Source: a virus
Lineage: Duplodnaviria > Caudoviricetes
Length of the DNA: 64,000 nt
Strand: one strand, 5' to 3'
Virus record (IMG/VR): IMGVR_UViG_3300012007_000672
Span: 4,808 to 68,807 of that record
The translations under genes were made by a program, and so were the position numbers. Positions 1 through 58,791 of the stretch are shown here, one piece after another (positions within the stretch are counted from its first letter, which is position 1; every line of letters begins with the position of its first letter). The notes beneath the pieces were generated by a model, which saw only the letters and a program-made list of their open reading frames with translations, searched no databases and was not told where the DNA came from.

Positions 1-127
1 TCACAATCTCCTCACTGAGTGTCCTCCACTCTGGAGATTCGCAATGCACGTGCTCGTGCGTCTCTCCTACGTGGCCTCCCTGGATAATCATCAGGAATGT
101 CGCCACTTTTAAAAATATTATCTTCAT
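1..127 (-). CDS. Partial ORF running off the left edge (MKIIFLKVATFLMIIQGGHVGETHEHVHCESPEWRTLSEEIV...); position fits the shufflon recombinase
   Basis: ATG at 127, open for 42 codons to the edge, GC-richer than the adjacent cassettes; no recombinase motif visible. Confidence 0.3.
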   Translation of the reverse strand, partial: MKIIFLKVATFLMIIQGGHVGETHEHVHCESPEWRTLSEEIV

Positions 128-193
128 AACATATATTTTATTCAAAAACTAAGAAATAGTTTCATATTTTAAATAGTTATTCGAAGAAATGTT

Positions 194-598
194 CTGGGCG
201 ATACATCTTATCTTTACAAAAGATATAGTTATTCATTAGATTCAGAAAAGACTGTAGAAATAGCGTTCTCAGGCTCAAATAATACATATAGTGCTATTAT
301 AACTGGAAAAACTTATTCAGGCTATGCTCCCCACGTCATACTCATTGGTACTGGCTCTTTGTCGGATGGAGATTCCAGAAGAAAATACTGGAGTTGTATT
401 AGAAAATCTAATGTATCATGGACTTATAACACAAATAAAAAAGGTACTATTGAATTAAAACAGGGGGGACAGTATTCTATGGTATTAAATGTAATCTGTT
501 TAAGTAACAATAGTGTCGAATTTACAGAAATAGAAGACTTGTCTAGTGCAGAAATTACAGATAGAGTAGCAATGCTGAGTGATATTCAATCAACTTAA
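194..598 (+). other. Silent tail-fibre C-terminal cassette 1 (134 aa, LGDTSYLYKR...DIQST)
   Basis: Open frame from CTGGGCG at 194 to TAA at 598 with no start codon of its own. Confidence 0.85.
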
Positions 599-625
599 AT
601 GAGGCAGATTAATTCTGCCTCATTT
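597..625. terminator. Bidirectional hairpin between cassettes 1 and 2
   Basis: AAATGAGGCAG-attaatt-CTGCCTCATTT. Confidence 0.75.
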
Positions 626-1068
626 TATGCTGTTGCATACTCTATAGTCTTCTCTAATATAACAGTATGCTCCTCGTCTGTTGGAACTAACATAGAAACC
701 TTTTCTGGTAGTGTATTATATGACATATTTATTAACCTCATATATAAGTCATTACCTGTATTACTCATTGAATTCACATATAAATCAAGAAAGTATTCTT
801 TTCCGACTTTTACAATTCGTATAGAGCGATATACATTTGTATTATTAGGCCAATATGCACCCTTAGCAAGTTGAATAATGTTTGATGGACAGCAGTAGTC
901 TTTTTCGCCAAAATAATTGATGGCTATAAAGAAAAGTGTATTGTTTGGCGACTTATTTATATAGTTATTAATAGGAGTTAATATAAACGTCTGACAAGAT
1001 TCCACCTTCATAAATCTATACCATCCTTTCGGGTTTAATCTTCCGTATGAGTAATTTTCTACGCCCAG
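625..1068 (-). other. Silent cassette 2 (147 aa, LGVENYSYGR...EYATA)
   Basis: Core at 1062-1068, in frame with ORF 625..1011. Confidence 0.85.
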
Positions 1069-1070
1069 AA

Positions 1071-1409
1071 TTATTTAGATAGTATAAACGTAGCACTAAC
1101 GGAGCCATAACTACAATGAATACCTATTGTATTATTATTTGTTTTTACATATGAAATTCGTCCCTGATACGTATTATATGATTCTTTTATATTAATTACC
1201 TCAAAATTATTACCACTATATCCACATCTTATCATATCTATAGATGAACCAGTACGATTGCCACCATCATCCTGATTAGAAGCAATTGCAAGGATAGTTA
1301 ACCCATAATTTCCTTGATTTATAGTAATTCCTGTATCAATAGTCTCGGTACCCCAAATCAAATAATTTGTTATATAACCAAGTTTGTTTAATGGTGATTG
1401 TCCGCCCAG
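1071..1409 (-). other. Silent cassette 3 (112 aa, LGGQSPLNKL...FILSK)
   Basis: Core at 1403-1409; its stop codon lies 2 nt before the cassette 2 core. Confidence 0.85.
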
Positions 1410-1416
1410 AAATGTT

Positions 1417-1662
1417 CTGGGCGAATATTACATTAATTATGCTAAAATAATCAAACGTTCATCAGGTTCAGATGTAGATAATGGGTGGGGGTTAGTGTGT
1501 GGCAGTAATGTAGGGCCTGTATCATCTGGAGATCCTTATATAGCAGGTGTAAGTTTCTTGTTTGATAACAACCCAAATTACCCTGGATTTATAGGAATAA
1601 CGATGAATGGAACCCCTTATGTTAAGTCTAGGTGGGGATGGAAAAGAATTTTAACCGAATAA
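1417..1662 (+). other. Silent cassette 4 (81 aa, LGEYYINYAK...WKRILTE)
   Basis: Core at 1417-1423, back-to-back with the cassette 3 core. Confidence 0.85.
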
Positions 1663-1696
1663 TATTAAAGAGGTAGAAACCTACCTCTTTAATATT
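1661..1696. terminator. Bidirectional hairpin between cassettes 4 and 5
   Basis: AATATTAAAGAGGTAG-aaac-CTACCTCTTTAATATT perfect inverted repeat. Confidence 0.8.
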
Positions 1697-1914
1697 TATA
1701 AGCTCGCCCATCCTGACCATCCACCGTGATAAGAACGCATTTTGGGAATCCTTCCGTCATAAGTTATGAAGAATTGGATGCCTTTCAAACCATTACTAGT
1801 GCCATGACATATACTTACTACGGGCCCCCAATCTATTCCATCTACGACATTTCCATAATAAAAATACGTTCCATAATCATTGCAATTATTATTTAATGGA
1901 AAATTAACGCCCAG
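1696..1914 (-). other. Silent cassette 5 (72 aa, LGVNFPLNNN...GGWSGWASL)
   Basis: Core at 1908-1914; WxxW ending typical of fibre tip domains. Confidence 0.85.
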
Positions 1915-1924
1915 GAAAAATGTT

Positions 1925-2167
1925 CTGGGCGAACGCATAGGTTCGTATTTAGCACATGAAAATGCTTGGAATTATCATATTCCTACCTATGAACAATTTA
2001 GAAACGATACATCAACAAGTGGCAAAGATGTTCCACAAACAGGGGTGTTCCAACAAATAATAACATTTCCTACACCTTGGGGATACTCTAAGTTAGCCAT
2101 AGGTCAGTATGGTGCTTATTCTAAGCATGTAGTAGATGCTACATCTTTTGGATGGACTAAACTGTGA
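1925..2167 (+). other. Silent cassette 6 (80 aa, LGERIGSYLA...FGWTKL)
   Basis: Core at 1925-1931. Confidence 0.85.
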
Positions 2168-2222
2168 AGAAACAAAACAAGATATACTCCTTCTGATGGT
2201 TGGGGTATTTGGAATAGTTTAT

Positions 2223-2247
2223 AAGAGGTAGCTAATAACTACCTCTT
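2223..2247. terminator. Bidirectional hairpin between cassettes 6 and 7
   Basis: AAGAGGTAG-ctaataa-CTACCTCTT. Confidence 0.75.
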
Positions 2248-2441
2248 TATATTGCTCTCCAGTCTTTAGTGTTGTTCTTAAGATAAATACTTCCATTATC
2301 AGCAAAACTAATCTTTCCAGTATAACCCTCTTTATTAAATGTTGCTATTATTTGATGGTCATTTACAGGAACATCTGCTCCTGATGGAATATGATTCCAA
2401 TTGTATCTATTTACACTAAGAAATCCACTCACAGCGCCCAG
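2247..2441 (-). other. Silent cassette 7 (64 aa, LGAVSGFLSV...KDWRAI)
   Basis: Core at 2435-2441. Confidence 0.85.
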
Positions 2442-2451
2442 AAATTAATAA

Positions 2452-2787
2452 CTGGGCGTTAATTCAAGGGTGAAATATGTACGAAACATGCTGGCAGTAA
2501 ATGGAAGTTGGAACACTGGTATTAATGCTTATGCTTCAGATGGAGTAGTCACTAAAGATATATTATGTTTTGCAAGTGGACATCTAAACATATCAAATAT
2601 TATGTATTGGAATGGTGTTCTTGTAAGACATCATTCATCAGGAAGTCCAACAATTGTAAAGTATAGTAGTGGTTGTACTGGAGACAGTGCTTATAATTTT
2701 TCAATTTCTGCTTCAGTAAGTGATAACAAGCTAGTTATCTCACATAGTTGTATTACTGCTATTTGTGTAACATTAATGTATATATAG
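2452..2787 (+). other. Silent cassette 8 (111 aa, LGVNSRVKYV...TLMYI)
   Basis: Core at 2452-2458, directly preceded by TAA. Confidence 0.85.
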
Positions 2788-2805
2788 CGTTTATAAGAAC
2801 GATTC

Positions 2806-3081
2806 CTGGGCGGACCCATTTTATCTAAACGTCTTTTCCCAGATATGTCTCCATCTCTAAAGGGAGCACCTTCAGGAATATGGTTTGTTTATTCCCCAGC
2901 AACTTTCTCCGATAACCCATATCCTTATAATACTGACCATTGTTCTATGCTAATTACAGCTGGTGACGTAAACGCACCAGGCAGTACACATGGTTCTATT
3001 TTGATTGATATTGAGTCTGTATCAGAATTCCAAGGTATATATAGATCATATTCTGGACAACCGTGGAAGAAAATATTATAA
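2806..3081 (+). other. Silent cassette 9 (91 aa, LGGPILSKRL...QPWKKIL)
   Basis: Core at 2806-2812. Confidence 0.85.
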
Positions 3082-3105
3082 AAGGAAGGATTTCTCCTTC
3101 CTTTA
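3080..3105. terminator. Bidirectional hairpin between cassettes 9 and 10
   Basis: AAAAGGAAGGA-tttc-TCCTTCCTTTT. Confidence 0.75.
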
Positions 3106-3108
3106 TTA

Positions 3109-3267
3109 CTATTGCTTAGTTATACTGACAACAAAATTATCTCCAGAAAAAGTGTCTTGAATCCAAAGTTTTCCATTGCCCTTTGGATTAAAAACAATTG
3201 AGATTCCATCACCATCTATCCATCTATTATTAGATCCATCTGAATGATTTGTAGTAGCTGCGCCCAG
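3109..3267 (-). other. Silent cassette 10 (52 aa, LGAATTNHSDGSNNRW...VVSITKQ); absent from the ORF track
   Basis: Core at 3261-3267, open to TAG at 3109; resembles the expressed cassette 13. Confidence 0.85.
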
Positions 3268-3519
3268 TTAAGAAATAACGGCTACCCAGCCTCCGTAAAA
3301 CACACCTCCATCACATCTTCTTAAGTAAAGATATGGTGTGCCGTTATCTGGTAGCAGATTCATACCAAATGCGATTAAAGTATAGTATCTATTTACATAT
3401 TCCTCAGCCGAAATCTTTACTTTTAACCAATTTCCTGTCTTGCCTCCTATGGTGTCATACTCATACCATGTTTTTATTAGCCCACTATTAGATTTCCATA
3501 AACTAACATTACCGCCCAG
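3268..3519 (-). other. Silent cassette 11 (83 aa, LGGNVSLWKS...WVAVIS)
   Basis: Core at 3513-3519; its TAA abuts the cassette 10 core. Confidence 0.85.
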
Positions 3520-3527
3520 AAATGTTC

Positions 3528-3908
3528 CTGGGCGGATTACTGAAAACAACTAAGATTACTACAACTGCTTCCACACCACTTGAAATTTTAAGAGACATTG
3601 GTGATTGGAGTTCTAATGCAGGTTTTACTATCAGTTTTGGTTTTAAAAAGAATACGGGAAATGAAGAGTCAGTGTATGTACAAGTGGATAAAAACGATAA
3701 AGAGCTGCTTGTTTATTCCACAAAATCTTCTCCACTTGCAGTTGTCCGTGACGTGGGCAGTTACAGTAGTGAAGCCCCAGTTTGCTTAGATTTTTTTGCA
3801 AAGACGACTTCAACAAACAACTTAATAGGCTATTTGAGAGCTAATAAAAACTCTGGAGAGCTTTATTGGTATAACAACAAAACCGGTACCGATACTAAGT
3901 TGGCATAA
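3528..3908 (+). other. Silent cassette 12 (126 aa, LGGLLKTTKI...DTKLA)
   Basis: Core at 3528-3534. Confidence 0.85.
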
Positions 3909-3929
3909 GAGGTAGGGTTCCTACCTCTT
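3907..3929. terminator. Bidirectional hairpin between cassette 12 and the expressed fibre end
   Basis: AAGAGGTAGG-gtt-CCTACCTCTT. Confidence 0.8.
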
Positions 3930-6254
3930 TTATATTTTTGTTATAGGAATATTCCAGTCTTCATTTGTATCAGTATCTGTTATTATCAATTTATTACTAT
4001 TTGGGTAAAAAGTTATATCAAAATGGCTAAAAGTTGCCCATCGGCTTGATGAAGTGGAACTCTTTTCTGATGTTGCAAAATATCCCTTGCCAGAAATATA
4101 TGTAACGCCCAGAAGTGATGCGTACTCACTGAGAATGGAGGATGATTTCATATAGTTATAGGCTAGTTTCTGCATTTCCCCTGGTGTCATTTTCTGTAAA
4201 GTCCATTTACCGTCGGAACTCTGGCTACCCCAGAACGCTGTCTTGCCAGAGACATTGGCGGCGGTCAGCGACGTGACATTATTTGACGCAAGCGGCAGGG
4301 AATTGTCGAGCTTCACCTTGTCAGCGGCAGACATTAGGCCTTTCTGCTGTTGGGTGGCGATAGGGATAGCGGACAGGATATTGAACGTTGCAGGGTTCGA
4401 CAGACCGCCATTGTTGGTCCAGGACAGGTTTCCGTTGGCATCGATTTTGGGGGTGAAGGTCGCACCACGGAGGTTATGGAACGAAAAGCTGAAGATACGG
4501 TTAGCGTTAGTGCCGCCAGTGTTGACAGTTACGGATGGCGTGCCGACGCCACTGTCGATCGTGGCTGTCGCTTCGCCGATACCCGCATTAGCACCTTGGG
4601 CACCATTGAGCACGATTAAATCGGCTGTCGCTCCGTCGGTGAAGGTAACTCGCCAGATATTCTCTCCACCGGAAGCATCCGACCTCTGTACCTGTTGCAT
4701 CGAGGCGACACCGCGCCCATCGGCACCACGAGGAATGACGAAGTTCAGCAGGAAACAAGGATTACCGTTCGCGTCGGTACCGTTAGCCGTGATTGTCACC
4801 GACGGCTGAGTACCAGGATCACCAGCGACAACTGTGCCGATCGAGAATTGTGGTGTCTTGCCCTCAAAGCCCATAGCACCGCTGAAGTCACCTAACTCGT
4901 GCCAGCGCTCATGGTCTGGGTCGTCGCTCTCGCCCATGTAGCTGAAGAGCTTCGAGTTGTCCGGATCATCCACTGTTGATTTGATAAGCACGAAGTCAAA
5001 CTGCTCAAGCGGTTCCTCGCCTTCAGGCAGATTTTCCGGATCGTAAGCTCTCATCAGGGCAATCGAGGCAAATTCCTTCGAGATGCGGAAGCGCTCAAGC
5101 TTCTGCCAGAAGTGGTTGGTCTTTACATACTGCTCCGTCGCAAGGTCGTATTCATAGATATAACCGTCGGCACCGAACTGCGCCGGATGGTTGGCGCGGG
5201 TGAGCATCTGCTGATAGAGGTCCTGCATGTTCTGCAGCAGCTGTGCGTATGCTGTCTGGCGTGCCGTCTCAGCATCTTCACGATCCTGTTCCGCATCCTC
5301 ACGATCGCCCTCTGCCGTATCACGCAGGTTCTCCGCGGAGATTCTGTTCCCTTCATTTGTCTGCCTGGTCTGTTCGGCACTGTTACGGTCACCCTCAGCC
5401 GTATTACGCAGATTCTCGGCAGCGACTCTGGCCGCCTCTGCCGTGTTACGATCCGACTCAGCCGCCTGGCGTGCCAGCTCCGCCGTCTGTCGGGTGGACT
5501 CAGCGTCCTGCCTGTCCTGCTCAGCGGCGCTCATGGTATTTGTGAACGCCTGATAGGCTGCCTTTGCCGCTGCCAACCATGTGCTCCAGGTTTTTCGCAC
5601 GCCACCCTCAGATTCTTCTGTAGCACCGAAGAACGAGTTCCAGGAAGATTGTGCCTGCGACTTCCAGGTGTCGGCTTCATTCTTGAAAGTATTCCAGCGT
5701 TGCAGAATACCTGTGCCATCCTCAGGGTTGCTAAACCAAGACTCGACTGTAGCCCTGAATGTGCCAAACCATCCGCTTCTGGCTGTCTCAGCGTCCTGGC
5801 GGTCCTGCTCGGCGCTCTCACGATCCGCCTCCGCCAGTCCACGGGCAACCTCCGCTTCAGCTCTCAAGGTCTCCGCCGAAGCCCTCAGAGCCTCTGCGGA
5901 GGCTCTGGCTGTTTCCGCATTTGCTCTGGCCGTCTCATCCAGTATGCGCTGCTGCTCGGCGCTGTTGATCTGAGCGTTCGTGTCCTCGATTGCCTGCAAT
6001 GCGTTGTTAGCCCTGTTCACAGCCTGCTCCACGAGAGCCAGTGCCGAAGCCAGATAGCTTTCCGGACGCACGGCCTGAATCTGGTGTACGCCCTCCCAGA
6101 CATACTGCATCAGCACTGCCTGATGCTTCAGCGAGTCATAATCCACGAGGGGGATACTTGACGCCTCTTGCATCTTGGTGGCCAAACGATCCAATATCTC
6201 ATCATAATGCTCATCAACGAGCCGGTTAAGCAATGTCTGTATAGAACTATCCAT
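3930..6254 (-). CDS. Tail fibre / receptor-binding protein with switchable C-terminus (cassette 13, last 60 aa)
   Basis: AE/QDR-rich coiled-coil repeats, collagen-like G-x-x-G segments, ATQQQKGLMSAADKVKLD fibre repeat; CTGGGCG core at 4106-4112 within SLLGV; start taken at MDSSIQ. Confidence 0.88.
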   Translation of the reverse strand: MDSSIQTLLNRLVDEHYDEILDRLATKMQEASSIPLVDYDSLKHQAVLMQYVWEGVHQIQAVRPESYLASALALVEQAVNRANNALQAIEDTNAQINSAEQQRILDETARANAETARASAEALRASAETLRAEAEVARGLAEADRESAEQDRQDAETARSGWFGTFRATVESWFSNPEDGTGILQRWNTFKNEADTWKSQAQSSWNSFFGATEESEGGVRKTWSTWLAAAKAAYQAFTNTMSAAEQDRQDAESTRQTAELARQAAESDRNTAEAARVAAENLRNTAEGDRNSAEQTRQTNEGNRISAENLRDTAEGDREDAEQDREDAETARQTAYAQLLQNMQDLYQQMLTRANHPAQFGADGYIYEYDLATEQYVKTNHFWQKLERFRISKEFASIALMRAYDPENLPEGEEPLEQFDFVLIKSTVDDPDNSKLFSYMGESDDPDHERWHELGDFSGAMGFEGKTPQFSIGTVVAGDPGTQPSVTITANGTDANGNPCFLLNFVIPRGADGRGVASMQQVQRSDASGGENIWRVTFTDGATADLIVLNGAQGANAGIGEATATIDSGVGTPSVTVNTGGTNANRIFSFSFHNLRGATFTPKIDANGNLSWTNNGGLSNPATFNILSAIPIATQQQKGLMSAADKVKLDNSLPLASNNVTSLTAANVSGKTAFWGSQSSDGKWTLQKMTPGEMQKLAYNYMKSSSILSEYASLLGVTYISGKGYFATSEKSSTSSSRWATFSHFDITFYPNSNKLIITDTDTNEDWNIPITKI

Positions 6255-6303
6255 GATTCGAAAGTTTTTAGGGTGAACAGGGTTAATGAATGAAAAAAAC
6301 TGA

Positions 6304-6666
6304 TTACTCTTCGGTGGCGGGCTGGTCGCCTTCAGTGGGCTGGTTCTCGTCTCCTGCAGGTGCGTCGTCGCTCTCTGCCTCCAGCTGGTCGGCAAGGGCG
6401 AACTCAACGGTCTCCTTCAGCTTACCGAGCACATTGATAAGCGTTCTGCGCTTCATCTTGGTGATACCGTTCAGGTCGAGATACACCTTGTCGCCTTCGT
6501 CGCGCAATGCGAACTGCCCGATATCCTTACCAGTGCCATCCTTGATGCTGCTGCGCACATAAGCCGATCCGTCGGCCTTGATGTTGACGGTTGACTCCAC
6601 ACCGACACCCTGACCGCAATACTCAGCGGGGATGTCAAAACTCTGATTACCATTCGATCTTTTCAT
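6304..6666 (-). CDS. Hypothetical phage protein, tail region
   Basis: ORF from MKRSNGNQ, co-directional with the tail genes. Confidence 0.7.
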   Translation of the reverse strand: MKRSNGNQSFDIPAEYCGQGVGVESTVNIKADGSAYVRSSIKDGTGKDIGQFALRDEGDKVYLDLNGITKMKRRTLINVLGKLKETVEFALADQLEAESDDAPAGDENQPTEGDQPATEE

Positions 6667-7013: not shown

Positions 7014-10000
7014 TTAGATTGATAAATAATTCCAAAACCATGTATCTTCGTACAGTATAAGCTCGGTCCTGTCATAATTGTTCAGGTCCTGGCCTTCATC
7101 AGCCGACGAGATATAATGGTCGGTGTATATCTTATAGTTTGACAAGGGGCGGATATTCACCGTATGCCCAAGTGTCTTGATGGTAATTGTCTTGTTATTT
7201 GGACAGCCTGTAGGCAGAAAAATCGTTGTCGTGTAATTCGGGACGAGCGGCACGAGAACGAAGTCGTCGTCAGCGTTAAGATAAACTGTCGCGCCAGTGA
7301 CAGCCCTGACACAGCGGCTGGCATACAGGGCACACCACTCGTCTTTGGAGTTGTTCCACCGCTCGATGCCGTCTTCAGTAATGCGCAGGCCGTTCTGGTA
7401 TTGTCCGGCGATCCACAGGTTTCCGTTGGTATCAAGTCCCATCAGTTTGTCAGTGCCGGAATATACCTCCCACGCCTTGGTGAAGTTGAATTTGATCACG
7501 TCGGCCTGGATGTCGATAAACGACGTGTGCTCCTGGATATACAACGCCAGCTGGCTAGAGGTCTTCAGGGTACCGTCAGAGTTAAACTGCGCCACAATGT
7601 TGGTGATGCTGGATTTCGTCTGCGAGATAGCCGTAGCGTTGTTGTTGATTGCCGTATTGGCGTTGTCGATGCGAGTATTCAGGCTATCGACATAGCCCTG
7701 CACGGCAGCCGTTGTGGCCAGTGTCCCCACAGTCGTCTGCAGACCGTTCACGTCAAGGCGCAGTTGCGACAATCCCTTCACGCTTCCGTCATTCTCAAAG
7801 CTCGCTGCCCAGAGGTTGATGGTGCTTGAGGTCTGTGTAATCCACGTGGCGGTATTGTTCTTGAATGTCTCTAGGGTACCAAGGCGTCCTTCGATAGCCT
7901 CTTTAGCTCTGTCCGACGCCGCTTTATTATTCGTCACCTCTGTAGCGATGCGTTGCGCTTCTACACTCAGCTCCGCGTGCATAGTGCGTGTGGCGTATGT
8001 TGCCTCTGCTTCCACTCTCCAGAGCCTTGCAGTCTGGGTTACACGGGTGATATAGTCAACCCTGAGCGACTCCACGGGATCGTTGGTGAGGGCGACGAAC
8101 CTGATCATGCACTGACCGGTATAGTTCACCACCATCTTGCCAGTGCCGGAGAAATCCCAGGGTGCCTGCTCTGTGTCCTGCGCCTGGATGGTCATCCATG
8201 CCCCCGTGTCGGTTATGTTGCGCTGCCAGCCCTCCGACAGTGCCCCCTGCCTCAAGAACTCCACCTTCAGGGTGCCCTCGCTAACGGGCAGGATCCTGAT
8301 GCCCATATACAGGCGATCCTTCACGTCGTTCATCGCCGTACCCTCGGCTGAAGCCATCTCCTTGTGCGTGGTGTTTGCCTTCATGTCGGCAAAGTCCTGG
8401 GCCACGCCAGCCCCGTTAAGCTTCAGCACCGGCACACCGTCGAACTCCGAGAGTACGGCCTGCTGCCGGCTCCCTACTGAAAGCAGCTGTCCGTTCACCA
8501 TCAGCGGTGCGCCGGCGGTGTTCAACAGCCCCACATGCCCCTGTGCGGCGATAGGCGAGCCGTCGGTGGTGCATGGCATCCAGTCCTCCAGCTCACGCAC
8601 GAAGAAGCCGTTGCTCACATGGTTGCTGTCCTCGCTGATATCGTAGGTTGTCTCCTTATATACGGAGGTATGCTTCGTCCTGGCCGTGTTGATCTTCGCC
8701 GTCAGCGACTCTCCAGTCTGGGCGTTATGGAACTCACCAGTGCCGTAGAAGTAGTTGGTATAGATACCGAAGCCCTTCAGCCAGCCGAAGTCGTCCGTGC
8801 GCACACCCTGTAGGTTGCCAAGGCGCGACTTGAGAGCCCGCTGCGGGTCGGTCTTCAAGCCGTACAAGATATCCATGTATGGAGTGTTGCTGCCTACAGA
8901 CATCATTGTCATGATACCCTTTCTATCCGGATCCCTATCATTATCCACACGCACGACAGTGTCTCCAGCCTTGATTGCTACTTCTGGCGTGAGACCTTCG
9001 ATCTGTGAGGAAAAGTTTTCGAACGTGATCCAGTCCAATCTGTCCTCGCCGTCTGAGAGAGGGCCTACACCGACCTCTTTCACACGCATCTCGTAAGCCT
9101 TGGTGACGTAATAGTCATTGGTTGTGTTCGGCTCCCCGTTGTACTGTTGCACTTCCACAAGATCACCCTCGCGGAAGGTGTTGTACAGCTTGCCGTTGCC
9201 TGTCTTTAAATAAATGATGCCAGTCTCTGTGTCGTAGTGGTCAACCTCCATCGATCCGGAGATATAGATGTTGTCATTCTCGCCTCTAAGTTGGGAGATG
9301 ATCATCTCATACACGCGCAGGATGTTTCTGACATTGACGTTGTCTATCTCGAGAGTATATTTATACTCCACGACACCGGCACTGTTGATGTACTCGTTGC
9401 GTCTGATCGCCCAGCCAAGGCCGCCAAGGAAGGCACTTACAAACTCCGGACTGGAGAGGTTATGCGAGAATGTGGAATCGCCTTTGACGGCAAGGGCGGG
9501 AACTTCCCTGCCGTCCTGGTCCTCATGTCTGGTACCATCGCCGATGGTGGCGTTCACTCTCACCCACAGCTCTTCAAGTTCCGCTTTAGCCTCAGGCGTT
9601 ATGATACCGCCACGAAGCCCAGCCGAGTAGGCACCGAACACCACGTCGTGAAGGGCTGTCAGACCTTGTCTGAAGGTGATGTGTCCGGCTGCCATGTCAT
9701 CATGCAGGCGCGACAGGAAATGGCTCTCTCCAAAGAAATCAGCCAGGCGCAGAAGCTCATCTGACAGATACCCTGCCAATTCGGCCAGTGTGGTAGCCCC
9801 CCATTCCTCTGAGTAGGGGTTCTGTACCGGAAATAGAGCCCCTGCGCTTAGTAATGGTCTCTGGAACTCAACTAAGCGAGGGGCGATGGTAAAAGACGCG
9901 ACGTCAGGGATGTCGATGTGCATCTCATGGAGCTGGGCATCTGTCCTGGGCAGGTTCAGATACGGCTTCGTGCTTGCATATTGATAGGTGAAGTTATACT

Positions 10001-10985
10001 CCGATGGAAGATCCCTGGCGGAATAGTTTACGTCTGATTCCGTTACGATGATCTTCCTGACAACAGGATCGCAGATATATTTCCCTAGGCTGGGGAAGAA
10101 GTCGAGCAGCCATCGGCGCTCGTGCTTATCAAGCCAGCCCGTCGATTTCTTGTATTTCCGCTTTACGTCCACACGATATTCAGAGCTCTCGTCGTCGATG
10201 GTCGCCACCTGGTGTTCGTGGCTGGCAGAGTTTTCAGAGTCACCGTAAGCCCTGAAGGTGTCGATGCCGCCTAGTGAATTTTCAAACATGAACCACGTCT
10301 CTTCCTCTGATTTTGCATCAGAAGCATAGTAACGCTGGATATAAGTCAGCCGCACGCCGTTCATATCCTCCACCCATACGTCATGATAAGAGTGGAGAGA
10401 ACCAACCATCCCAGATATCACCTGATAGCCCACAGGCACAGACCAACAGGTTCCGGCAGGAATGGATTTCAGCTGCAGATTATGTGAGTTGCCGTTCGAC
10501 ATATAGGCGCGGCACATCATCCTGCAGGCTACTGGTGCGTAATAAGTCAGGAACTCGGGCATGTAATAAGTGACAGGCTTCACGGTTGGCTGCCAGGTCA
10601 GGAAATTCTGAGTCAGGAAGTTTTCTGCGCTGTCAGCTAACGCACTGACTCCTGCCCTCAAGACCACGAAGGCAATGCTTCTCTCTGCCAAACTGCTCGA
10701 AAGCCCGATGGTGAAACTGCGGGCGATACGTGTCTGCTGGTACGGACGTGTCGGGTCTTCAGGAAATCCGAATGTCAGGTGAGCCTTGGCGATATCTTCC
10801 AGATTAACTTCTATTTGTCCGTCGGCATTCGCCTTGTAGGTATGCGTCACGATTGGCGACGATGCCTCCGCGGCACCAAGCCACACCTGCATTGTCACCT
10901 CTTCGTCCACATCCTCCACCTGCAGCACGAGGTGCTTCAGGTTGCCAAGCAGACTAAGTTGGTCCGGTTGTCTGTTAATGATCAT
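7014..10985 (-). CDS. Large tail protein (central tail tip / host-specificity type)
   Basis: 1323 aa, located between the tape measure/distal tail genes and the fibre, with a C-terminal coiled coil. Confidence 0.75.
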   Translation of the reverse strand: MIINRQPDQLSLLGNLKHLVLQVEDVDEEVTMQVWLGAAEASSPIVTHTYKANADGQIEVNLEDIAKAHLTFGFPEDPTRPYQQTRIARSFTIGLSSSLAERSIAFVVLRAGVSALADSAENFLTQNFLTWQPTVKPVTYYMPEFLTYYAPVACRMMCRAYMSNGNSHNLQLKSIPAGTCWSVPVGYQVISGMVGSLHSYHDVWVEDMNGVRLTYIQRYYASDAKSEEETWFMFENSLGGIDTFRAYGDSENSASHEHQVATIDDESSEYRVDVKRKYKKSTGWLDKHERRWLLDFFPSLGKYICDPVVRKIIVTESDVNYSARDLPSEYNFTYQYASTKPYLNLPRTDAQLHEMHIDIPDVASFTIAPRLVEFQRPLLSAGALFPVQNPYSEEWGATTLAELAGYLSDELLRLADFFGESHFLSRLHDDMAAGHITFRQGLTALHDVVFGAYSAGLRGGIITPEAKAELEELWVRVNATIGDGTRHEDQDGREVPALAVKGDSTFSHNLSSPEFVSAFLGGLGWAIRRNEYINSAGVVEYKYTLEIDNVNVRNILRVYEMIISQLRGENDNIYISGSMEVDHYDTETGIIYLKTGNGKLYNTFREGDLVEVQQYNGEPNTTNDYYVTKAYEMRVKEVGVGPLSDGEDRLDWITFENFSSQIEGLTPEVAIKAGDTVVRVDNDRDPDRKGIMTMMSVGSNTPYMDILYGLKTDPQRALKSRLGNLQGVRTDDFGWLKGFGIYTNYFYGTGEFHNAQTGESLTAKINTARTKHTSVYKETTYDISEDSNHVSNGFFVRELEDWMPCTTDGSPIAAQGHVGLLNTAGAPLMVNGQLLSVGSRQQAVLSEFDGVPVLKLNGAGVAQDFADMKANTTHKEMASAEGTAMNDVKDRLYMGIRILPVSEGTLKVEFLRQGALSEGWQRNITDTGAWMTIQAQDTEQAPWDFSGTGKMVVNYTGQCMIRFVALTNDPVESLRVDYITRVTQTARLWRVEAEATYATRTMHAELSVEAQRIATEVTNNKAASDRAKEAIEGRLGTLETFKNNTATWITQTSSTINLWAASFENDGSVKGLSQLRLDVNGLQTTVGTLATTAAVQGYVDSLNTRIDNANTAINNNATAISQTKSSITNIVAQFNSDGTLKTSSQLALYIQEHTSFIDIQADVIKFNFTKAWEVYSGTDKLMGLDTNGNLWIAGQYQNGLRITEDGIERWNNSKDEWCALYASRCVRAVTGATVYLNADDDFVLVPLVPNYTTTIFLPTGCPNNKTITIKTLGHTVNIRPLSNYKIYTDHYISSADEGQDLNNYDRTELILYEDTWFWNYLSI

Positions 10986-13148: not shown

Positions 13149-16100
13149 CTATCCTTTTTTTGCCAGGTTACGTGAACGGTTACGGACATTCTGCTTGGCG
13201 TCCCACTCGTCGAAGCCAAGGTAGGCTGGCACGCCGTCGCGGTCAATGCGCTCCAGGATATCTGCCAGCCGTTTCATGCTTGTCACGTCAGCCGCTGGGG
13301 CAGGGGTGAGGGATGGCAGGGGCGGGGGAGTGGAGATCGTACCGCCACCGGCATAGCCCTGAGCCTTCTGCCGGCGCAGGTATTTACTGAAATCGAAGGT
13401 GCGCAGCTGTCCGGAGCGCTGCACACGGTCAATCACATCGATAAACGGTGCTATCGTTGGATTCTCCACAGCCTCGTTGGAGGCGATCCACTCCTTCGGG
13501 CGCGGTCCTTCGCCGACGATCACTGTCGGTTGGTTAACGTAGCCCCGTTTCTTCGGGTCATATTTCGCATGGAATCGCTTGCCGTCCTGCTCACGCTCCA
13601 CGTCGAGCCATCCGCCCTCCTCGCGGCCAGTAGCCACACGTGCTCCGCCGCTGCCTGAAGAACCGGCACCGTTCAGGGTCATACGCTTCACCTTCTGGCG
13701 TTCAGCATTGGCTACAGCCAACTGGGCGATACCTGTCACAGAAAGCATGGCTGCAGCAATAGCTCCGCCAATAGGTCCAAGCTGGGCAAAAGCCGTCATG
13801 ATGGCCATCGCCGTGTTGGCAATGATCTCTGAGGCCTTGACTGCGAATTGCACGTCAGCATATTTCTTCTCGATCTTCAGCTTCTCGTTAGCCTTCTTGT
13901 TCTCCAGCTCCGTCGTATCCTTACCGGCTTTGCGGGCAGCATCAATCTCTGCATCATACTTGGCATCCACGTTAGCCATCTCGGCATCCATCAGGGCATT
14001 GACGGCATCGGAAAACAGCTGATGATAATAATCAAACGTCTGCTTCCAGTAATCCATCTTCAGCTGCTTCAGGGCCTGCTGATATTCCTCTTCGTTCAGA
14101 AGCCCTTCCTCGTATTGCTGCAGCAGTTGTTCCTTCTGTTGTTCATAAAGTTCTGCCTGGGTCACAAGGCCGTACTGCTGGCGAATCTGGAACTTTTCCT
14201 GCTCCAGTCTCTCGGTATAGTCCTTCTCCAGCCTCTCCTTGGCCTGCTGATAAGCCAGGTCTATACTGAGCAGTTCCTCGTTATGTTCCTGAGCGTACTG
14301 GAGAGAGGCCTTGTAATAGCCCTCAAGGGATTTCAGCTGCAGCTGGTGTTCGTACTCCATGCGCTCCACTCTGTTCATGCCGCCGTTCTCCAGCTGTTGC
14401 AGGTTATCCTGATATTTCTGATAGGCAACGGTACGGGCATTGTAACTGTCGTTCTCTGCCTTCAGGATGTTACGCTCCTGTTCGGTGATGGCAGCCTTAC
14501 GAAGATCAGCGCTGTTGAACTCCATCTGCATGATCTTCTCCAGATAGGCTTTCTCCGTTGCCACCTGCTGATCTGTCTGTGCCACCTGCAGGTTGGCCAT
14601 GATGGCGTCGAACTGCTCCTGCGATATCTGTTTGTCGGCCAACTGTTTCTTGTAGATTCGGACGCTTTCCTCGTAGAAATACTTCTGCTCATCGAGTTCC
14701 TTCTGCCGTGCCTGTTTCAGCGCCTTCATGCGCTCACGGTCCTCGGCTGCTGAAGTATCCTTGGCTTTTTTCGCCTTCTGGGGCTTATCCGACGATGGGG
14801 TGGGGGATTCGGGATTTGAATCAGGTAAAGGTACAGATGAACCACCGCCACCGCTATCAAACGACGGGGCTGTGATATGGCCGTCCACCACGTCGTGGAA
14901 GCCCTTGATAAGACTGCTGCCCCAAGTGTTGCCCAGTTTCTCGAAATTCCTCCATTGTTCCTTCATGCCCGACCATGCGTCTGTGAAGATGCCAGTGAAG
15001 CCTTCCTTGATCTTGCCGAAGTCCAAGGTAAAGACACCTTCTACCATCTTGCCAAGATTAAGGATCTGCTTGCCGATGGTCTTCAGGGCTGTTATAGTAA
15101 AATTGGCTCCGAACTTGATGACAGCCCAGAGAATTTTGAAATGGGAGGTGAGTACAGCCACTCCAGCCCTCACGGTTGCAGACGAGTTATACAAATCTAC
15201 GAATCCGGCTATGCCCTGCTTGAAAGCCCTGACAAGATAGGTGAAGAACCTGAGTGCCGCCACCTGGATCGTCTGCCACATGCTGCTTCCCTTCTCCGCC
15301 AACGGCAGCATCTCGTCGCCCAGTTCCTTCTGTGCGTTCTGCACTTCGGTGACGGCACGTTTCTCGCGCTCCGCGGCATCCTCGTAGTGCTCGCCCTGCG
15401 CTGCCAGCTGCTGCTCGATGATGCGGCCCACGGCTGTGGCCATGTCGCCGCCCTTGGCCATCTCCTCCTTGATCTGGGCTGCGGAGATACCAAGGTTGTC
15501 CAGGATCATCGGTGACTTGCGCCCTAGACCAGTAATGATTGATTCGGTCATATAATCCACCGACTGGCCAGTCTGTGATGCCTTCAGCTGGGCGAACTCC
15601 AGATACTTGCCCAGCTGATCGAGCGGCAGGCGGAAGTCCTTGGCCTTTACGGCTGCCTTCATCAGCTCCACGTCGTTCACGGTACCATGGGTGGCCTCGC
15701 GCAGATTATCCAGGATATCGGGGCGGTTCAGCCGCTCGAAGGCGTGGGTGATACCGTCGGCACTCTTGGCCATCTCGATGCCCTCGTTCACCATCTCCTT
15801 GGTCTTTGAAATGGCTGTGCCTGCCAGACCAACAACGATATCAAGTCCTTTTGATACGACACCGATAATACCAGAGCCCATCAGAAAACCCAGATTAGTC
15901 TTTGAGAGAAATATCTCTTTCAAACTAGTGGCACTGCCTCTCAGTTCTGCCATTCTGCCCTGAACTTCCTTCAGCTTGTTGGCATATTCCGCATAGGCCT
16001 CAGGCTCTAATTCCTTAGACGTACTGTCCAATTGCTTCTGAAGCAACTTGGCTTCGTTGCGAAGCTGCGACATCGTCATGGCATTCGTACCTAGAGTCTT

Positions 16101-16358
16101 GGTGAGCGACAGGAGATTTGCATTCTCGTCAGCAATCGCTTGGGTGTTTTTGACGATCTTTCTGGTCAGTTCCGCATACTCTTTCGACTCAGTAAGGTGT
16201 GCCGCTTTAAAGGCCGCCTGCTGCTCCAGGAGGTTTTTACGCTCTTTTTCCAGATCTTTAAGACTCTTGTTGGTTTTATGAATCTCTTGCTGGATCTTGG
16301 AGGTGTCGGCTTCTACGATCAATTTTAAGACATCCTCTGAAACTTTACCTTTTGCCAT
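13149..16358 (-). CDS. Tail tape measure protein
   Basis: 1069 aa, coiled-coil and Ala/Gly-rich, hydrophobic segments, LGRKSPMILDNLGI motif, C-terminal GYAGGG. Confidence 0.9.
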   Translation of the reverse strand: MAKGKVSEDVLKLIVEADTSKIQQEIHKTNKSLKDLEKERKNLLEQQAAFKAAHLTESKEYAELTRKIVKNTQAIADENANLLSLTKTLGTNAMTMSQLRNEAKLLQKQLDSTSKELEPEAYAEYANKLKEVQGRMAELRGSATSLKEIFLSKTNLGFLMGSGIIGVVSKGLDIVVGLAGTAISKTKEMVNEGIEMAKSADGITHAFERLNRPDILDNLREATHGTVNDVELMKAAVKAKDFRLPLDQLGKYLEFAQLKASQTGQSVDYMTESIITGLGRKSPMILDNLGISAAQIKEEMAKGGDMATAVGRIIEQQLAAQGEHYEDAAEREKRAVTEVQNAQKELGDEMLPLAEKGSSMWQTIQVAALRFFTYLVRAFKQGIAGFVDLYNSSATVRAGVAVLTSHFKILWAVIKFGANFTITALKTIGKQILNLGKMVEGVFTLDFGKIKEGFTGIFTDAWSGMKEQWRNFEKLGNTWGSSLIKGFHDVVDGHITAPSFDSGGGGSSVPLPDSNPESPTPSSDKPQKAKKAKDTSAAEDRERMKALKQARQKELDEQKYFYEESVRIYKKQLADKQISQEQFDAIMANLQVAQTDQQVATEKAYLEKIMQMEFNSADLRKAAITEQERNILKAENDSYNARTVAYQKYQDNLQQLENGGMNRVERMEYEHQLQLKSLEGYYKASLQYAQEHNEELLSIDLAYQQAKERLEKDYTERLEQEKFQIRQQYGLVTQAELYEQQKEQLLQQYEEGLLNEEEYQQALKQLKMDYWKQTFDYYHQLFSDAVNALMDAEMANVDAKYDAEIDAARKAGKDTTELENKKANEKLKIEKKYADVQFAVKASEIIANTAMAIMTAFAQLGPIGGAIAAAMLSVTGIAQLAVANAERQKVKRMTLNGAGSSGSGGARVATGREEGGWLDVEREQDGKRFHAKYDPKKRGYVNQPTVIVGEGPRPKEWIASNEAVENPTIAPFIDVIDRVQRSGQLRTFDFSKYLRRQKAQGYAGGGTISTPPPLPSLTPAPAADVTSMKRLADILERIDRDGVPAYLGFDEWDAKQNVRNRSRNLAKKG

Positions 16359-18020: not shown

Positions 18021-18510
18021 TTAAATATTCAATGAGTACGTCCTTCATCCTTTTCTCAGTTTGCAAATTGATATTTGCAGGCTTCCCGTATATCTCTTTC
18101 AAATAATCACTGTACCTAATGACTTCAGCGTATATCACTTTGGGAAGTATTAGCTGATTTGCATCTGCTGTTGAAACAATTTTGTTCACCTTTTGCAAGT
18201 CAACCTCCTCAGATCTAATTGAGATAATAACTTTGTATAATTCAGTCAGGATCTTTCTCTTCTCCTTTGCTTTGTCTTCGCGTTCACTGATCATGTAAGT
18301 TACATAGATGGCTATAATAGAGAGTATCACTGAATATACCCCGCCGATATAATCACCAAAGGTGCCCCAGTCTGTTGGATCTTTACTGAATCCATAGCTG
18401 TAGAATCTTATGATATAAGCAATGACAGGAATGATACAGGCAACAATAGCCAACAACAACAGCCATTTTCTTTTTATCCAGTTCTTGCAAAGATTTAAAT
18501 CACATTTCAT
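18013..18510 (-). CDS. Membrane protein with two N-terminal TM helices
   Basis: WGTFGDYIGG motif between hydrophobic helices; overlaps the next gene by 8 bp. Confidence 0.8.
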   Translation of the reverse strand: MKCDLNLCKNWIKRKWLLLLAIVACIIPVIAYIIRFYSYGFSKDPTDWGTFGDYIGGVYSVILSIIAIYVTYMISEREDKAKEKRKILTELYKVIISIRSEEVDLQKVNKIVSTADANQLILPKVIYAEVIRYSDYLKEIYGKPANINLQTEKRMKDVLIEYLSE

Positions 18511-57327: not shown

Positions 57328-57412
57328 GGAGAGATGGTAGAGTGGTCGATTACAGTAGTCTTGAAAACTACCGTGCTGAGAGGCACCGGGGGTTCGAATC
57401 CCTCTCTCTCCG
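57328..57412 (+). tRNA. tRNA-Ser(TGA)
   Basis: Acceptor GGAGAGA/TCTCTCC, anticodon arm GTAGT-CTTGAAA-ACTAC, long variable arm, GGTTCGAATCC. Confidence 0.97.
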
Positions 57413-57636
57413 CTTTTTAATGAAAAGGGAACCTTACGGATTCCCTTTTTTCGTGCCTGAAAATCAACTGCTTGCATTTTTAACCCATTGAAAATCTGCT
57501 ATATAGAGGGAGGAACGTCCCTAAAATGACATAAGCAGTCATTGGACATCTTCCGCTATCATAAGCACGGAATGTATTACCAGATGTATTACCGCCCCCC
57601 GCTGTCAATAGTTTAAAGTAATACTTTTAGTTAAAA

Positions 57637-58791
57637 ATGAACAAGACACCGTTATTAGAGTTCGTTTACAACCGCAAAAAGACTGCGGCAACGAACAGGG
57701 AGGCAGCTGTTGAACTCAGAATCACTTTTGAGCGTAAACAGAAGTACATGACAACAGGCATCAGACTCCTGCCAAAGCATTGGCACAGGGGTGCTGTGGT
57801 AAATCGAATTGATGCCCGTGAGTTGAACGAGACGCTGGAGAAACTCATGGCTGAGGTTCGTCAGGTCATTCTTGACATGATGGGCGAGAGCGTAATGGAC
57901 ATCTTTTCTATTCAGGAGAGGTTGAAGCGTAAACGAGCAAGCGCCATCTCGTTCTTGGAGTTCTGCGAACAGCGGACAAAGATCCGTCAGTATGGCAAGG
58001 CTGATGACAGTAAAGAGCGTTACAGCCGTTTCATGCGTTTCTTCTCTGCATGGGGCAAGATCCGCTATTTCGAGGATGTCACCGATGCAAACATCTTGGC
58101 ATTGGATGAACATCTGGCAAAGAAGGGACTGAAACCTTATTCTAAGTGGAACAACTACCATCGGTTCCTTAATTCCTTCATCTTGGATGCTATCGATGAA
58201 GGATTCTTGAAACGTAATCCTTACAAATGGATTCGTATAGACAAGGAGAAATCGAAAGGTGGCATTGGCAAGTATCTTTCTCCATTAGAGTTTGCGAAGG
58301 TTCGCGATGTCGCATTACCTTCTGAATGTCTTCAGAGAGTTCGCGACGTGTTCGTTTTCCAAACTTACACCTGTCTTTCATACACCGACCTACACGACTT
58401 CGATGCGAGCAAAATTAAGGAAGTGAAAGGTATGAAAGTTTACGTTGGAAACCGAGCTAAGACGAAGCAGACGTTCACAATCCCACTACTATCACCAGCC
58501 ATGGCGGTGCTGAAAAAGTATCAGAATAAGTTGCCCGTCATCAGTAACGTTAAGTATAACGAGTACCTGAAGGTTATTGCTCAAGCAGCAGGCATTGACA
58601 AACCCGTATCGAGCCACTGGGCAAGGCATACTGGCGCAACATTACTACTCAATGAAGGCGGCATGGATTTGAAGACGGTAGCAAAGATTTGCGGTCACTC
58701 ATCCTTTAAAATTACAGAGCAAGTCTATGCTAACATGCTCGATGATACTGTAGTTGACAAGATGGCTGCATACGAGAAAACACTGAAATAA
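57637..58791 (+). CDS. Tyrosine integrase (Bacteroidetes type, arm-binding N-domain)
   Basis: RDVFVFQTYTCLSYTD, RAKT, HWARHT, CGHS...TEQVYA; the first catalytic Arg position reads S in the LSYTD variant. Confidence 0.92.
   Translation: MNKTPLLEFVYNRKKTAATNREAAVELRITFERKQKYMTTGIRLLPKHWHRGAVVNRIDARELNETLEKLMAEVRQVILDMMGESVMDIFSIQERLKRKRASAISFLEFCEQRTKIRQYGKADDSKERYSRFMRFFSAWGKIRYFEDVTDANILALDEHLAKKGLKPYSKWNNYHRFLNSFILDAIDEGFLKRNPYKWIRIDKEKSKGGIGKYLSPLEFAKVRDVALPSECLQRVRDVFVFQTYTCLSYTDLHDFDASKIKEVKGMKVYVGNRAKTKQTFTIPLLSPAMAVLKKYQNKLPVISNVKYNEYLKVIAQAAGIDKPVSSHWARHTGATLLLNEGGMDLKTVAKICGHSSFKITEQVYANMLDDTVVDKMAAYEKTLK

What the first reader, a model, noticed from the sequence alone, without database searches (positions are those of the whole stretch)
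194..4112. 13-way tail-fibre shufflon in a Prevotella-type prophage
Seen: the 7-mer CTGGGCG occurs 13 times in 3.9 kb of AT-rich DNA, where about 0.5 copies are expected at uniform base composition. Six copies are on + and seven on -. Every copy opens an in-frame Leu-Gly-x ORF of 52-147 aa without its own start, and one copy lies inside the fibre gene (SLLGV, 4106-4112). Known: the R64 shufflon (Rci/sfx), p15B Min, Mu Gin and P1 Cin swap C-termini by inversion. Inference: inversion between site 4106 and any + site fuses a new receptor-binding tip in one step, and the - cassettes need two steps. That gives 13 host-range variants, far more than the two of Gin/Cin, by an inversion route rather than a DGR.
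Basis: partly seen in the sequence, partly recalled or inferred. Interest (0 to 1): 0.93.

Follow-up and report, generated by a model that had tools for sequence, protein, structure and literature searches.

The report
Thirteen-tip phage tail-fibre shufflon
A Prevotella-type prophage stores 13 interchangeable end-pieces for its tail fibre behind one 7-base DNA-flipping site, a large example of a known kind of host-recognition switch, but in this copy the gene for the flipping enzyme has been split by another mobile element.

Summary
CTGGGCG occurs 13 times in window 194-4112, six on + and seven on -. Each copy opens an in-frame Leu-Gly ORF of 52-147 aa, and one copy lies inside the tail-fibre gene.

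The shufflon reading is supported by natural recombinants:
- A 98%-identical fibre from another sample carries the window's silent neighbour cassette as its tip.
- Two sister contigs with 99.9%-identical fibre bodies diverge exactly after the last base of the core.
- Related phages have the same layout with 7, 10, at least 20 and 29 sites, beside a conserved Bacteroidota-type tyrosine recombinase.

New here: only the last 58 codons of that recombinase remain in this prophage, just left of the window. A tandem-integrase mobile element has inserted at the box II codons. This copy may therefore be locked in its present configuration.

The principle is already published (R64, Min, Rin, BV01-like phages). 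This scan has also met the same CTGGGCG system on other DNA, with 10, 29 and 31 cassettes, so this is a large new variant and not a new kind of system.

The parts
4113..6254 (-). Constant body of the tail-fibre gene (714 codons from the ATG at 6254 to the junction ...EYASL). The whole gene is 3930-6254, 774 aa.
   Evidence: ORF. P0071 is 100% identical from the ATG; weak PHROG tail and virion hits. It lies downstream of the tape-measure gene (13149-16358) and a tail-fibre-like gene (7014-10985); relatives end in a Peptidase_S74 domain (P0013).
3930..4112 (-). Expressed tip cassette c4106- (core 4106-4112, 60 aa, stop 3930-3932).
   Evidence: The same tip is on P0070 and P0071.
3528..3908 (+). 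Silent cassette c3528+ (core 3528-3534, 126 aa); reachable in one inversion.
   Evidence: It is expressed as the fibre tip in P0066, with 97.6% identity over 126 aa.
3268..3519 (-). Silent cassette c3513- (core 3513-3519, 83 aa); two inversions. Its stop abuts site 3261.
3109..3267 (-). Silent cassette c3261- (core 3261-3267, 52 aa); two inversions. It is a weak paralogue of the expressed tip (37% over 48 aa).
2806..3081 (+). Silent cassette c2806+ (core 2806-2812, 91 aa); one inversion.
2452..2787 (+). Silent cassette c2452+ (core 2452-2458, 111 aa); one inversion.
2247..2441 (-). Silent cassette c2435- (core 2435-2441, 64 aa); two inversions.
1925..2167 (+). Silent cassette c1925+ (core 1925-1931, 80 aa); one inversion.
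1696..1914 (-). Silent cassette c1908- (core 1908-1914, 72 aa); two inversions.
1417..1662 (+). Silent cassette c1417+ (core 1417-1423, 81 aa); one inversion.
1071..1409 (-). Silent cassette c1403- (core 1403-1409, 112 aa); two inversions. Its stop abuts site 1062.
625..1068 (-). Silent cassette c1062- (core 1062-1068, 147 aa); two inversions.
   Evidence: No full-length fibre carrying this tip was found, which is weak negative evidence.
194..598 (+). Silent cassette c194+ (core 194-200, 134 aa). It is the most distal cassette and needs one inversion, of the whole array.
599..623 (.). Hairpin between the convergent cassettes c194+ and c1062-; probably a two-way terminator.
   Evidence: Read from the sequence: a 10-bp stem around TTAA.
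1661..1696 (.). Perfect 16-bp hairpin between the convergent cassettes c1417+ and c1908-.
   Evidence: inverted repeat I10.
2223..2247 (.). 9-bp hairpin between the convergent cassettes c1925+ and c2435-.
   Evidence: Read from the sequence. It shares the AAGAGGTAG stem with the hairpins at 1661 and 3907 (I3 and I16).
3081..3104 (.). Two-way terminator-like hairpin between c2806+ and c3261-.
   Evidence: scored on both strands.
3907..3929 (.). Terminator-like hairpin between c3528+ and the expressed tip; it ends the fibre transcript as the array now stands.
1..193 (.). Conserved spacer between the 3' end of the split invertase gene and the first site. The invertase remnant lies outside the window, at G000:4563-4739 (+), 68-244 nt left of window base 1. 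The spacer holds a small conserved ORF (window 2-145, -; 66 aa in all).
   Evidence: remnant. (collinear with L007). (small ORF and its L007 homologue).

Best explanation
This is a multiple-inversion system (a shufflon) that exchanges the last 50-150 residues of the tail fibre of a temperate Bacteroidales (Prevotella-type) prophage.

Layout. Thirteen copies of a 7-bp core, CTGGGCG (usually TTCTGGGCG), divide 3.9 kb into eight segments. The core is read as Leu-Gly in the fibre frame. Each of the 13 cassettes begins at a core, has no start codon of its own and ends in a stop. Convergent cassettes share a hairpin terminator.

Mechanism (inferred). A tyrosine recombinase makes its staggered cuts and strand exchange inside the invariant core. 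Inversion between the fibre's core (4106, -) and any + core therefore joins a new tip to the constant 714-residue body in one step. The - cassettes must first be flipped by an internal inversion. The result is 13 alternative fibre proteins. By analogy they bind different surface receptors, such as the phase-variable capsules of Bacteroidales.

The enzyme. The cognate enzyme is a roughly 383-aa Bacteroidota-type tyrosine recombinase (Arm-DNA-bind_5, SAM_5 and catalytic domains). Its gene lies at the far end of the array and is convergent with the fibre gene. In this prophage the gene is split at its box II codons (H-x-x-R-H) by a mobile element that carries two tandem integrases. Only the last 58 codons remain beside the array.

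Consequence. This copy is probably fixed in its present configuration. That would change if the element excises, if the 5' part survives at the element's unseen far end, or if an invertase acts in trans.

Shown: the anatomy, the topology, natural recombinants at the core in close relatives, the conserved layout and the truncation. Inferred: the crossover chemistry, which enzyme acts, the host-range effect and the present inactivity. My odds are 0.9 that it is a shufflon, 0.75 that this recombinase family is the invertase, and 0.55-0.6 that this copy cannot shuffle on its own.
For: 1. Thirteen cores, each opening the only open frame, P about 4e-20.
2. The simulation reaches all 13 tips, six in one inversion and six in two.
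3. Fibre bodies at least 95% identical to the window's carry at least seven different tips that start at LLG. P0070 and P0071 carry the expressed tip. P0066 (body 98.0% identical) carries the silent c3528+ at 97.6% identity.
4. L005 and L006 have 2 mismatches in 2311 nt up to the last base of CTGGGCG and no similarity after it.
5. The silent cassette 13534- of L007 is the expressed tip of P0006.
6. The same layout of fibre, cassettes and convergent recombinase is seen elsewhere. L007 has 7 sites with core CTGTCCG and an LLS junction. L017 has 29 CTGGGCG sites. L026 has at least 20 and the contig behind L018 has 10. The recombinases are homologous, at 33-43% identity.
7. The remnant at G000:4563-4736 is 93% identical to residues 326-383 of the 383-aa P0156 and 76% identical to L007's enzyme. 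The spacer down to the first site is collinear with L007.
8. The W409/W416 module recurs at 99.3% identity in another context. Homology to it ends at G000:4600 (L032) or 4573 (L033). In at least nine other loci it abuts 3' remnants of other recombinases at the same box II position.
9. There is no serine recombinase and no reverse transcriptase.
10. Hairpin terminators lie between convergent cassettes.
Against: - No reads were examined, so inversion within one population of this very prophage is not shown.
- The only two assemblies of near-identical fibres (P0070, P0071) have the same configuration. That fits a frozen array, but n = 2.
- Only 2 of the 13 window cassettes were found expressed elsewhere. 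A search for fibres carrying c1062- found nothing.
- No recombinase of this family has been tested biochemically. Its link to the arrays rests on adjacency in four loci.
- The site is very short (7-9 bp) for a tyrosine recombinase, and no conserved arms were found.
- The far end of the inserted element lies outside the record, so the invertase could still be whole or reconstituted there.
- The fibre model is of low confidence (pLDDT 51), and the 'tail fibre' label rests on gene position and weak family hits.
Confidence: 0.85

Rival explanations
1. The array is fully active in this prophage, because one of the two intact neighbouring recombinases (W409 at G000:3048-4277 or W416 at G000:1771-3021) has taken over as the invertase.
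For: Both are intact Bacteroidota-type tyrosine recombinases within 0.7-2 kb of the first site. Tyrosine recombinases can act on several kinds of site.
Against: They are only 22-23% identical to the array-linked family. The same pair occurs at 99.3% identity in a different context (L032) and at 60-92% identity in 14 other loci. None of those loci has a cluster of CTGGGCG: each holds 0-2 copies. In these loci the pair sits beside 3' remnants of unrelated recombinase genes, which is the signature of an inserted element.
Confidence: 0.08
2. The cassettes are an evolutionary store, exchanged between phages by homologous or illegitimate recombination at a conserved Leu-Leu-Gly linker. They are not switched by programmed site-specific inversion.
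For: Closely related fibre bodies carry tips that are absent from the window's set, so cassettes do turn over between genomes. Cassette DNA has a foreign-looking composition, 15-20 GC points below the phage.
Against: Nine base pairs of identity are too few for RecA-type exchange. The head-to-head and convergent layout with shared terminators is what inversion needs. A dedicated recombinase gene is conserved at the end of the array in four phages. Silent cassettes of one genome are the expressed tips of near-identical genomes, and the breakpoint falls exactly at the core.
Confidence: 0.04
3. The 12 silent frames are independent small genes, or decayed fragments, that merely share a motif.
For: Several contain internal ATG codons from which gene callers would call shorter ORFs.
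Against: The frames open exactly at the core in 13 of 13 cases, and the other frames are closed. None begins with a start codon. One is found fused to the fibre body in another sample.
Confidence: 0.01

Closest known systems
Rin shufflon of Bifidobacterium breve and B. longum prophages (Mavrich et al. 2018, PMC6109161)
   Same: It is phage-encoded. A constant N-terminal receptor-binding-protein gene is followed by start-less variable C-terminal cassettes behind a short asymmetric repeat. A tyrosine invertase gene lies at the far end of the array. Inversions were seen at the repeats.
   Different: Rin has five variants and an 11-bp rix site, TTCCCTAACCC, which is absent here. Its host is an actinobacterium. 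Here there are 13 variants, a 7-bp core and a Bacteroidota-type recombinase with an arm-binding domain, whose gene is split in this copy.
Tail-fibre shufflon of BV01-like Phocaeicola vulgatus phages (2026 preprint, PMC13596623)
   Same: It is a temperate Bacteroidales phage. A multi-cassette array overlaps the distal end of a tail-fibre gene and is flanked by a recombinase. All configurations were detected in reads.
   Different: It has three cassettes giving six isoforms in 1.7 kb, and a 10-bp motif, TGGGAGAACT, with 14-18-bp extensions. That motif is absent from this array. The invertase family found here has no homologue above 31% identity in deposited phage genomes.
R64 / IncI plasmid shufflon (Rci recombinase, sfx sites, pilV)
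   Same: It is a multiple-inversion system. A tyrosine recombinase acts at a 7-bp core inside a short asymmetric site. Segments hold convergent alternative C-termini of one adhesin gene. Direct repeats persist without deletion. (From my own knowledge of the system, and PMC9881135.)
   Different: It is a plasmid pilus adhesin, not a phage fibre, with seven sfx sites and four segments. The sfx site has a conserved 12-bp arm, and no conserved arm is seen here. No Rci-specific family hit was obtained.
Min of plasmid-prophage p15B, Gin of Mu and Cin of P1
   Same: They swap phage tail-fibre C-termini by DNA inversion to change host range. Min has several crossover sites.
   Different: They use serine invertases with about 26-bp sites and an enhancer with Fis. 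No serine recombinase is encoded here.
CTGGGCG shufflons of large cattle-gut phages noted earlier in this scan (10, 29 and 31 cassettes)
   Same: They share the 7-bp core, the Leu-Gly junction, AT-rich start-less cassettes and a homologous recombinase. I found three of these loci independently (L017, L026 and L018).
   Different: There the target is a very small protein: the body before the junction is 54 aa in L017, in phages of 100-144 kb. Here the module is grafted onto a 714-residue fibre body of a prophage of about 50 kb, and the invertase gene is interrupted.

Membership tests
Shufflon (multiple-inversion system acting on one gene's C-terminus) | Several copies of one short crossover site, in both orientations, within a few kb | tested here: met
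   Thirteen CTGGGCG copies, six + and seven -, in 3.9 kb.
Shufflon (multiple-inversion system acting on one gene's C-terminus) | Each site opens an in-frame, start-less alternative C-terminus of the same gene | tested here: met
   (13 of 13).
Shufflon (multiple-inversion system acting on one gene's C-terminus) | A dedicated site-specific recombinase is encoded beside the array | tested here: inconclusive
   It is intact in L007, L017 and L026. In this prophage only the last 58 codons remain. The 5' part was not found in the 4.8 kb to the left.
Shufflon (multiple-inversion system acting on one gene's C-terminus) | Alternative arrangements exist, with crossovers at the site | tested here: met
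   This was met by comparison between samples only: P0066 against the window, L005 against L006, and L007 against P0006. It was not tested within one population.
Rci/sfx family (R64) | An Rci-type recombinase, and sfx sites with a conserved 12-bp arm | tested here: not met
   NCBIfam gives only generic Xer and integrase hits far below the cut-offs. No arm is conserved beyond TT.
Rin shufflon | rix site TTCCCTAACCC | tested here: not met
   No match in the window, even allowing one mismatch.
BV01-like phage shufflon | 10-bp motif TGGGAGAACT at the cassette borders | tested here: not met
   Five one-mismatch hits, none inside 1-4300, and no more than chance gives.
Gin/Cin/Min serine invertase systems | A serine recombinase (Resolvase domain) | tested here: not met
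   No PF00239 match in the whole 68.8-kb record.
Diversity-generating retroelement | A reverse transcriptase with template and variable repeats | tested here: not met
   No PF00078 match. The cassettes are unrelated to one another, apart from one pair at 37% identity.
Phage tail fibre / receptor-binding protein | Position in the tail module and homology to fibre proteins | tested here: met
   It is the last gene after the tape-measure and tail genes. There are weak PHROG tail and virion hits. Relatives with the same body end in Peptidase_S74 (P0013). The structure model was too weak to add anything.

The most novel reading that the evidence does not exclude
The tandem-integrase element that split the invertase gene belongs to a family that specifically inserts at the box II (H-x-x-R-H) codons of other tyrosine recombinase genes. 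Here it would act as a lock on the phage's host-recognition switch, reversible by excision: one mobile element controlling the variability of another. A second possibility is that the strong AT bias of all cassettes is selected so that the GC-rich core stays unique within the array.
Probability: 0.2. Interest if true: 0.8.

Novelty: new variant of a known kind. Interest (0 to 1): 0.62.

Why it matters
Gut and rumen Bacteroidales vary their capsules and surface proteins by DNA inversion. A prophage that holds 13 ready-made fibre tips would be the matching counter-move on the phage side.

The published phage shufflons I found offer five variants (Rin) or six (BV01-like). This family offers 13 here and up to 29 in relatives I examined. 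It uses a crossover site of only 7-9 bp and a recombinase family with no close relative in deposited phage genomes.

The natural recombinants make the system directly testable, with an inversion reporter and with adsorption assays using single tips. The short site and the modular tips could serve to retarget phages of laboratory Bacteroidales strains.

The split invertase gene adds a separate point: such switches can be shut off by other mobile elements, and that would change how prophage host range is predicted from sequence.

Tried and rejected
The cassette order in the closest relatives could therefore not be read.
- Megablast of window 1-6500 against deposited phages: no match.
- Fibre body and invertase alignment against species-representative genomes: nothing.
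- Fibre body and invertase alignment against IMG/VR: only L003 and L017.
- L003, L010, L008, L011 and L012 are fibre relatives without a shufflon.
- A search for full-length fibres carrying cassette c1062-: none found.
- The pattern scan for head-to-head site pairs returned 14 loci. Only L018, L026 and L030 (the same contig as L017) are real arrays; the rest are single matches, consistent with chance.
- AlphaFold model of the whole fibre: mean pLDDT 51, too weak for a fold search. It suggests only helices just before the junction and a beta-strand tip after it.
- DGR, serine invertase, Rin and BV01-type sites were all tested and excluded.
- No stop-less 'extender' cassette of the kind noted in L017 occurs in the window. 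Every cassette ends in a stop before the next core.

Full report
**1. Observation.** CTGGGCG occurs at the 13 stated positions in window 194-4112, six on + and seven on -.
- The whole window has 29 copies against 7.25 +/- 2.6 in shuffles. Thirteen of them lie in 3.9 kb of 33-36% GC DNA, while the rest of the phage is 50-58% GC.
- Read as CTG GGC Gnn, each copy opens a stop-free frame of 52-147 aa. The other two frames close within 2-32 codons.
- At the local stop frequency of 0.064 per codon, 13 of 13 open frames has a chance of about 4e-20.
- The copy at 4106-4112 (-) lies in frame in the last gene of the tail module at ...EYASL|LGV. That gene is 3930-6254 (-), 774 aa. Its true ATG was fixed by P0071, which is 100% identical.
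- Only the 7-mer is invariant, with TT before it in most copies. Neither flank is otherwise conserved.

**2. Anatomy.** The 13 sites cut the region into eight segments.
- Five segments hold two convergent cassettes that share a hairpin: 599-623, 1661-1696, 2223-2247, 3081-3104 and 3907-3929.
- Three segments hold one cassette whose stop abuts the next site.
- Four pairs of sites are head to head, 7-10 bp apart.
- I simulated inversions between every pair of inverted cores on the real sequence. The six + cassettes join the fibre body after one inversion and the six - cassettes after two, and no new junction products arise.

**3. Evidence that the array is used.**
- A search with the distal half of the fibre found a family conserved up to ...SLLG or ...QLLS and unrelated beyond it.
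- Inside the 90% cluster nearest the window, bodies 95-100% identical carry at least seven different tips. P0070 and P0071 have the window's expressed tip.
- P0066 (body 98.0% identical) has the window's silent neighbour cassette c3528+, at 97.6% identity over 126 aa, fused in frame at LLG. That is the product expected from inversion between sites 3528 and 4106.
- Two sister metagenome contigs of a related phage, L005 and L006, have 2 mismatches in 2311 nt of fibre body up to the last base of CTGGGCG and no similarity after it. This maps a natural crossover to the core.
- In L007, which uses the core CTGTCCG and an LLS junction, the silent cassette 13534- is the expressed tip of P0006.
- The remaining tips on near-identical bodies are not in the window, so cassette sets also turn over between genomes.

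**4. The recombinase.** No serine recombinase and no reverse transcriptase are encoded.
- In L007 the array of 7 sites is followed within about 250 nt by a convergent tyrosine recombinase with Arm-DNA-bind_5, SAM_5 and catalytic domains.
- Homologues of that recombinase sit in the same position beside 29 CTGGGCG sites in L017 (43% identity) and beside at least 20 in L026 (33% identity). A fourth array of 10 sites lies in the contig behind L018.
- The family has at least 180 clusters at 90% identity, typically 383 aa. The few that carry names are labelled Prevotella sp. or Bacteroidaceae. Many lie on contigs of 1-5 kb. It has no homologue above 31% identity in deposited phages.
- In the window's record, the expected position holds only the last 58 codons. 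These lie at G000:4563-4736 (+), 68-244 nt left of window base 1. They are 93% identical to residues 326-383 of P0156 and 76% identical to L007's enzyme.
- The spacer from there to the first site is collinear with L007 and includes a small conserved ORF.

**5. What split the gene.** Left of the break lie two intact tandem integrases, W409 and W416, and three HTH_17 genes.
- This module recurs at 99.3% identity in L032 and at 87-90% in L033. Homology to it ends at G000:4600 and 4573 respectively.
- In at least nine further loci, a 50-60-aa 3' remnant of some other tyrosine recombinase lies about 285 bp upstream of the W409 homologue. In L036 the remnant is 92% identical to the window's own third integrase.
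- All the junctions fall at the box II codons: ...NYH|QARHT, NFHQARHT, NYHCFRHS.
- None of these loci has a CTGGGCG cluster.
- I conclude that a mobile element which targets recombinase genes inserted into the invertase gene. Its far end is outside the record, so I cannot say whether the 5' part survives or is reconstituted.
- The prophage itself runs from the array to about 51 kb. Host genes (M48 peptidase, MutS2) follow. A separate island then follows, marked by tRNA-Ser and an integrase at 57.3-58.8 kb.

**6. Mechanism, and how sure.**
- Best reading (0.85-0.9): a tyrosine-recombinase shufflon that exchanges the fibre tip, with strand exchange inside the invariant 7-bp core. This parallels the 7-bp core of sfx in R64, which I cite from my own knowledge.
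- That the conserved neighbouring recombinase family is the invertase: 0.75.
- That this copy cannot shuffle by itself: 0.55-0.6.
- That the tips set host range is inference from the Min, Gin, Rin and BV01-like systems.

**7. Comparison with known systems.** The principle is published.
- Rin has five variants and an 11-bp rix site (PMC6109161).
- BV01-like phages have six isoforms and a 10-bp motif, verified in reads (PMC13596623).
- The motifs of both are absent here.
- This scan has already noted the same CTGGGCG system in large cattle-gut phages with 10, 29 and 31 cassettes on a small tip protein. I reached three such loci independently.
- The window differs in four ways: the module sits on a 714-residue fibre body, the phage is a temperate prophage of about 50 kb, there are 13 tips, and the invertase gene is split.
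- I rate it a new variant of a known kind.

**8. Unexplained.**
- Cassette DNA is 15-20 GC points below the host phage in all four loci.
- It is not clear how a recombinase with an arm-binding domain finds a 7-9-bp site.
- The role of the small conserved ORF between the array and the invertase gene is unknown.

**9. Limits.** No reads could be examined and no contigs of the closest relatives could be fetched. The fibre model is weak.

Noticed in passing
L002:1-4600 (G000:1-4600, just left of the window); also L032-L046: A tandem-integrase module (409-aa and 416-aa tyrosine recombinases, three HTH_17 genes and a Bro-N-like gene) behaves as a mobile element that inserts at the box II (H-x-x-R-H) codons of other tyrosine recombinase genes. 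At least ten loci show a 50-60-aa 3' remnant of a different recombinase about 285 bp from its end.
   Followed up: partly
window 2-145 (-), continuing to G000:4952; L007:14130-14310 (+): A small conserved ORF (66 aa here) lies between the invertase 3' end and the first shufflon site, on the fibre strand. It has a hydrophobic N-terminus and shared HEHVH and SGDTSTGL motifs. Its function is unknown.
   Followed up: partly
window 194-4112; L007:12158-14063; L017:11171-19926; L026:4441-12010: Cassette DNA is 15-20 GC points lower than the surrounding phage in every array: 35 against 50-58%, 36 against 52%, 43 against 64%, and about 40 against 55%. No explanation has been tested.
   Followed up: partly
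L017:11171-19926 (IMG/VR contig of 144 kb); L026:4441-12010 (108-kb contig, where the array runs to the contig end): Much larger arrays with the same CTGGGCG core, of 29 and at least 20 sites. In L017 the body before the junction is only 54 aa. One L017 cassette (18066+) contains a second junction-like site (ASDLASL|LG) at 18333.
   Followed up: partly
window 57328-58791: A tRNA-Ser gene is followed directly by a 384-aa integrase and then AT-rich cargo that includes a 1028-aa trypsin-like protein (60914-64000). This is a separate integrative island beyond the host genes for MutS2 and an M48 peptidase.
   Followed up: no
L003 (IMG/VR) and P0013 (named Xylanibacter ruminicola): Relatives of the same fibre body have no shufflon. 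They end instead in a fixed distal part of about 280 aa with a Peptidase_S74 domain. The shufflon module therefore replaced a conventional fibre end.
   Followed up: partly
L005 (contig JAEEGG010005821.1) and many invertase-bearing contigs of 1-5 kb: Contigs often end at or inside these arrays. This fits assembly breaks caused by mixed configurations in the sampled populations.
   Followed up: no
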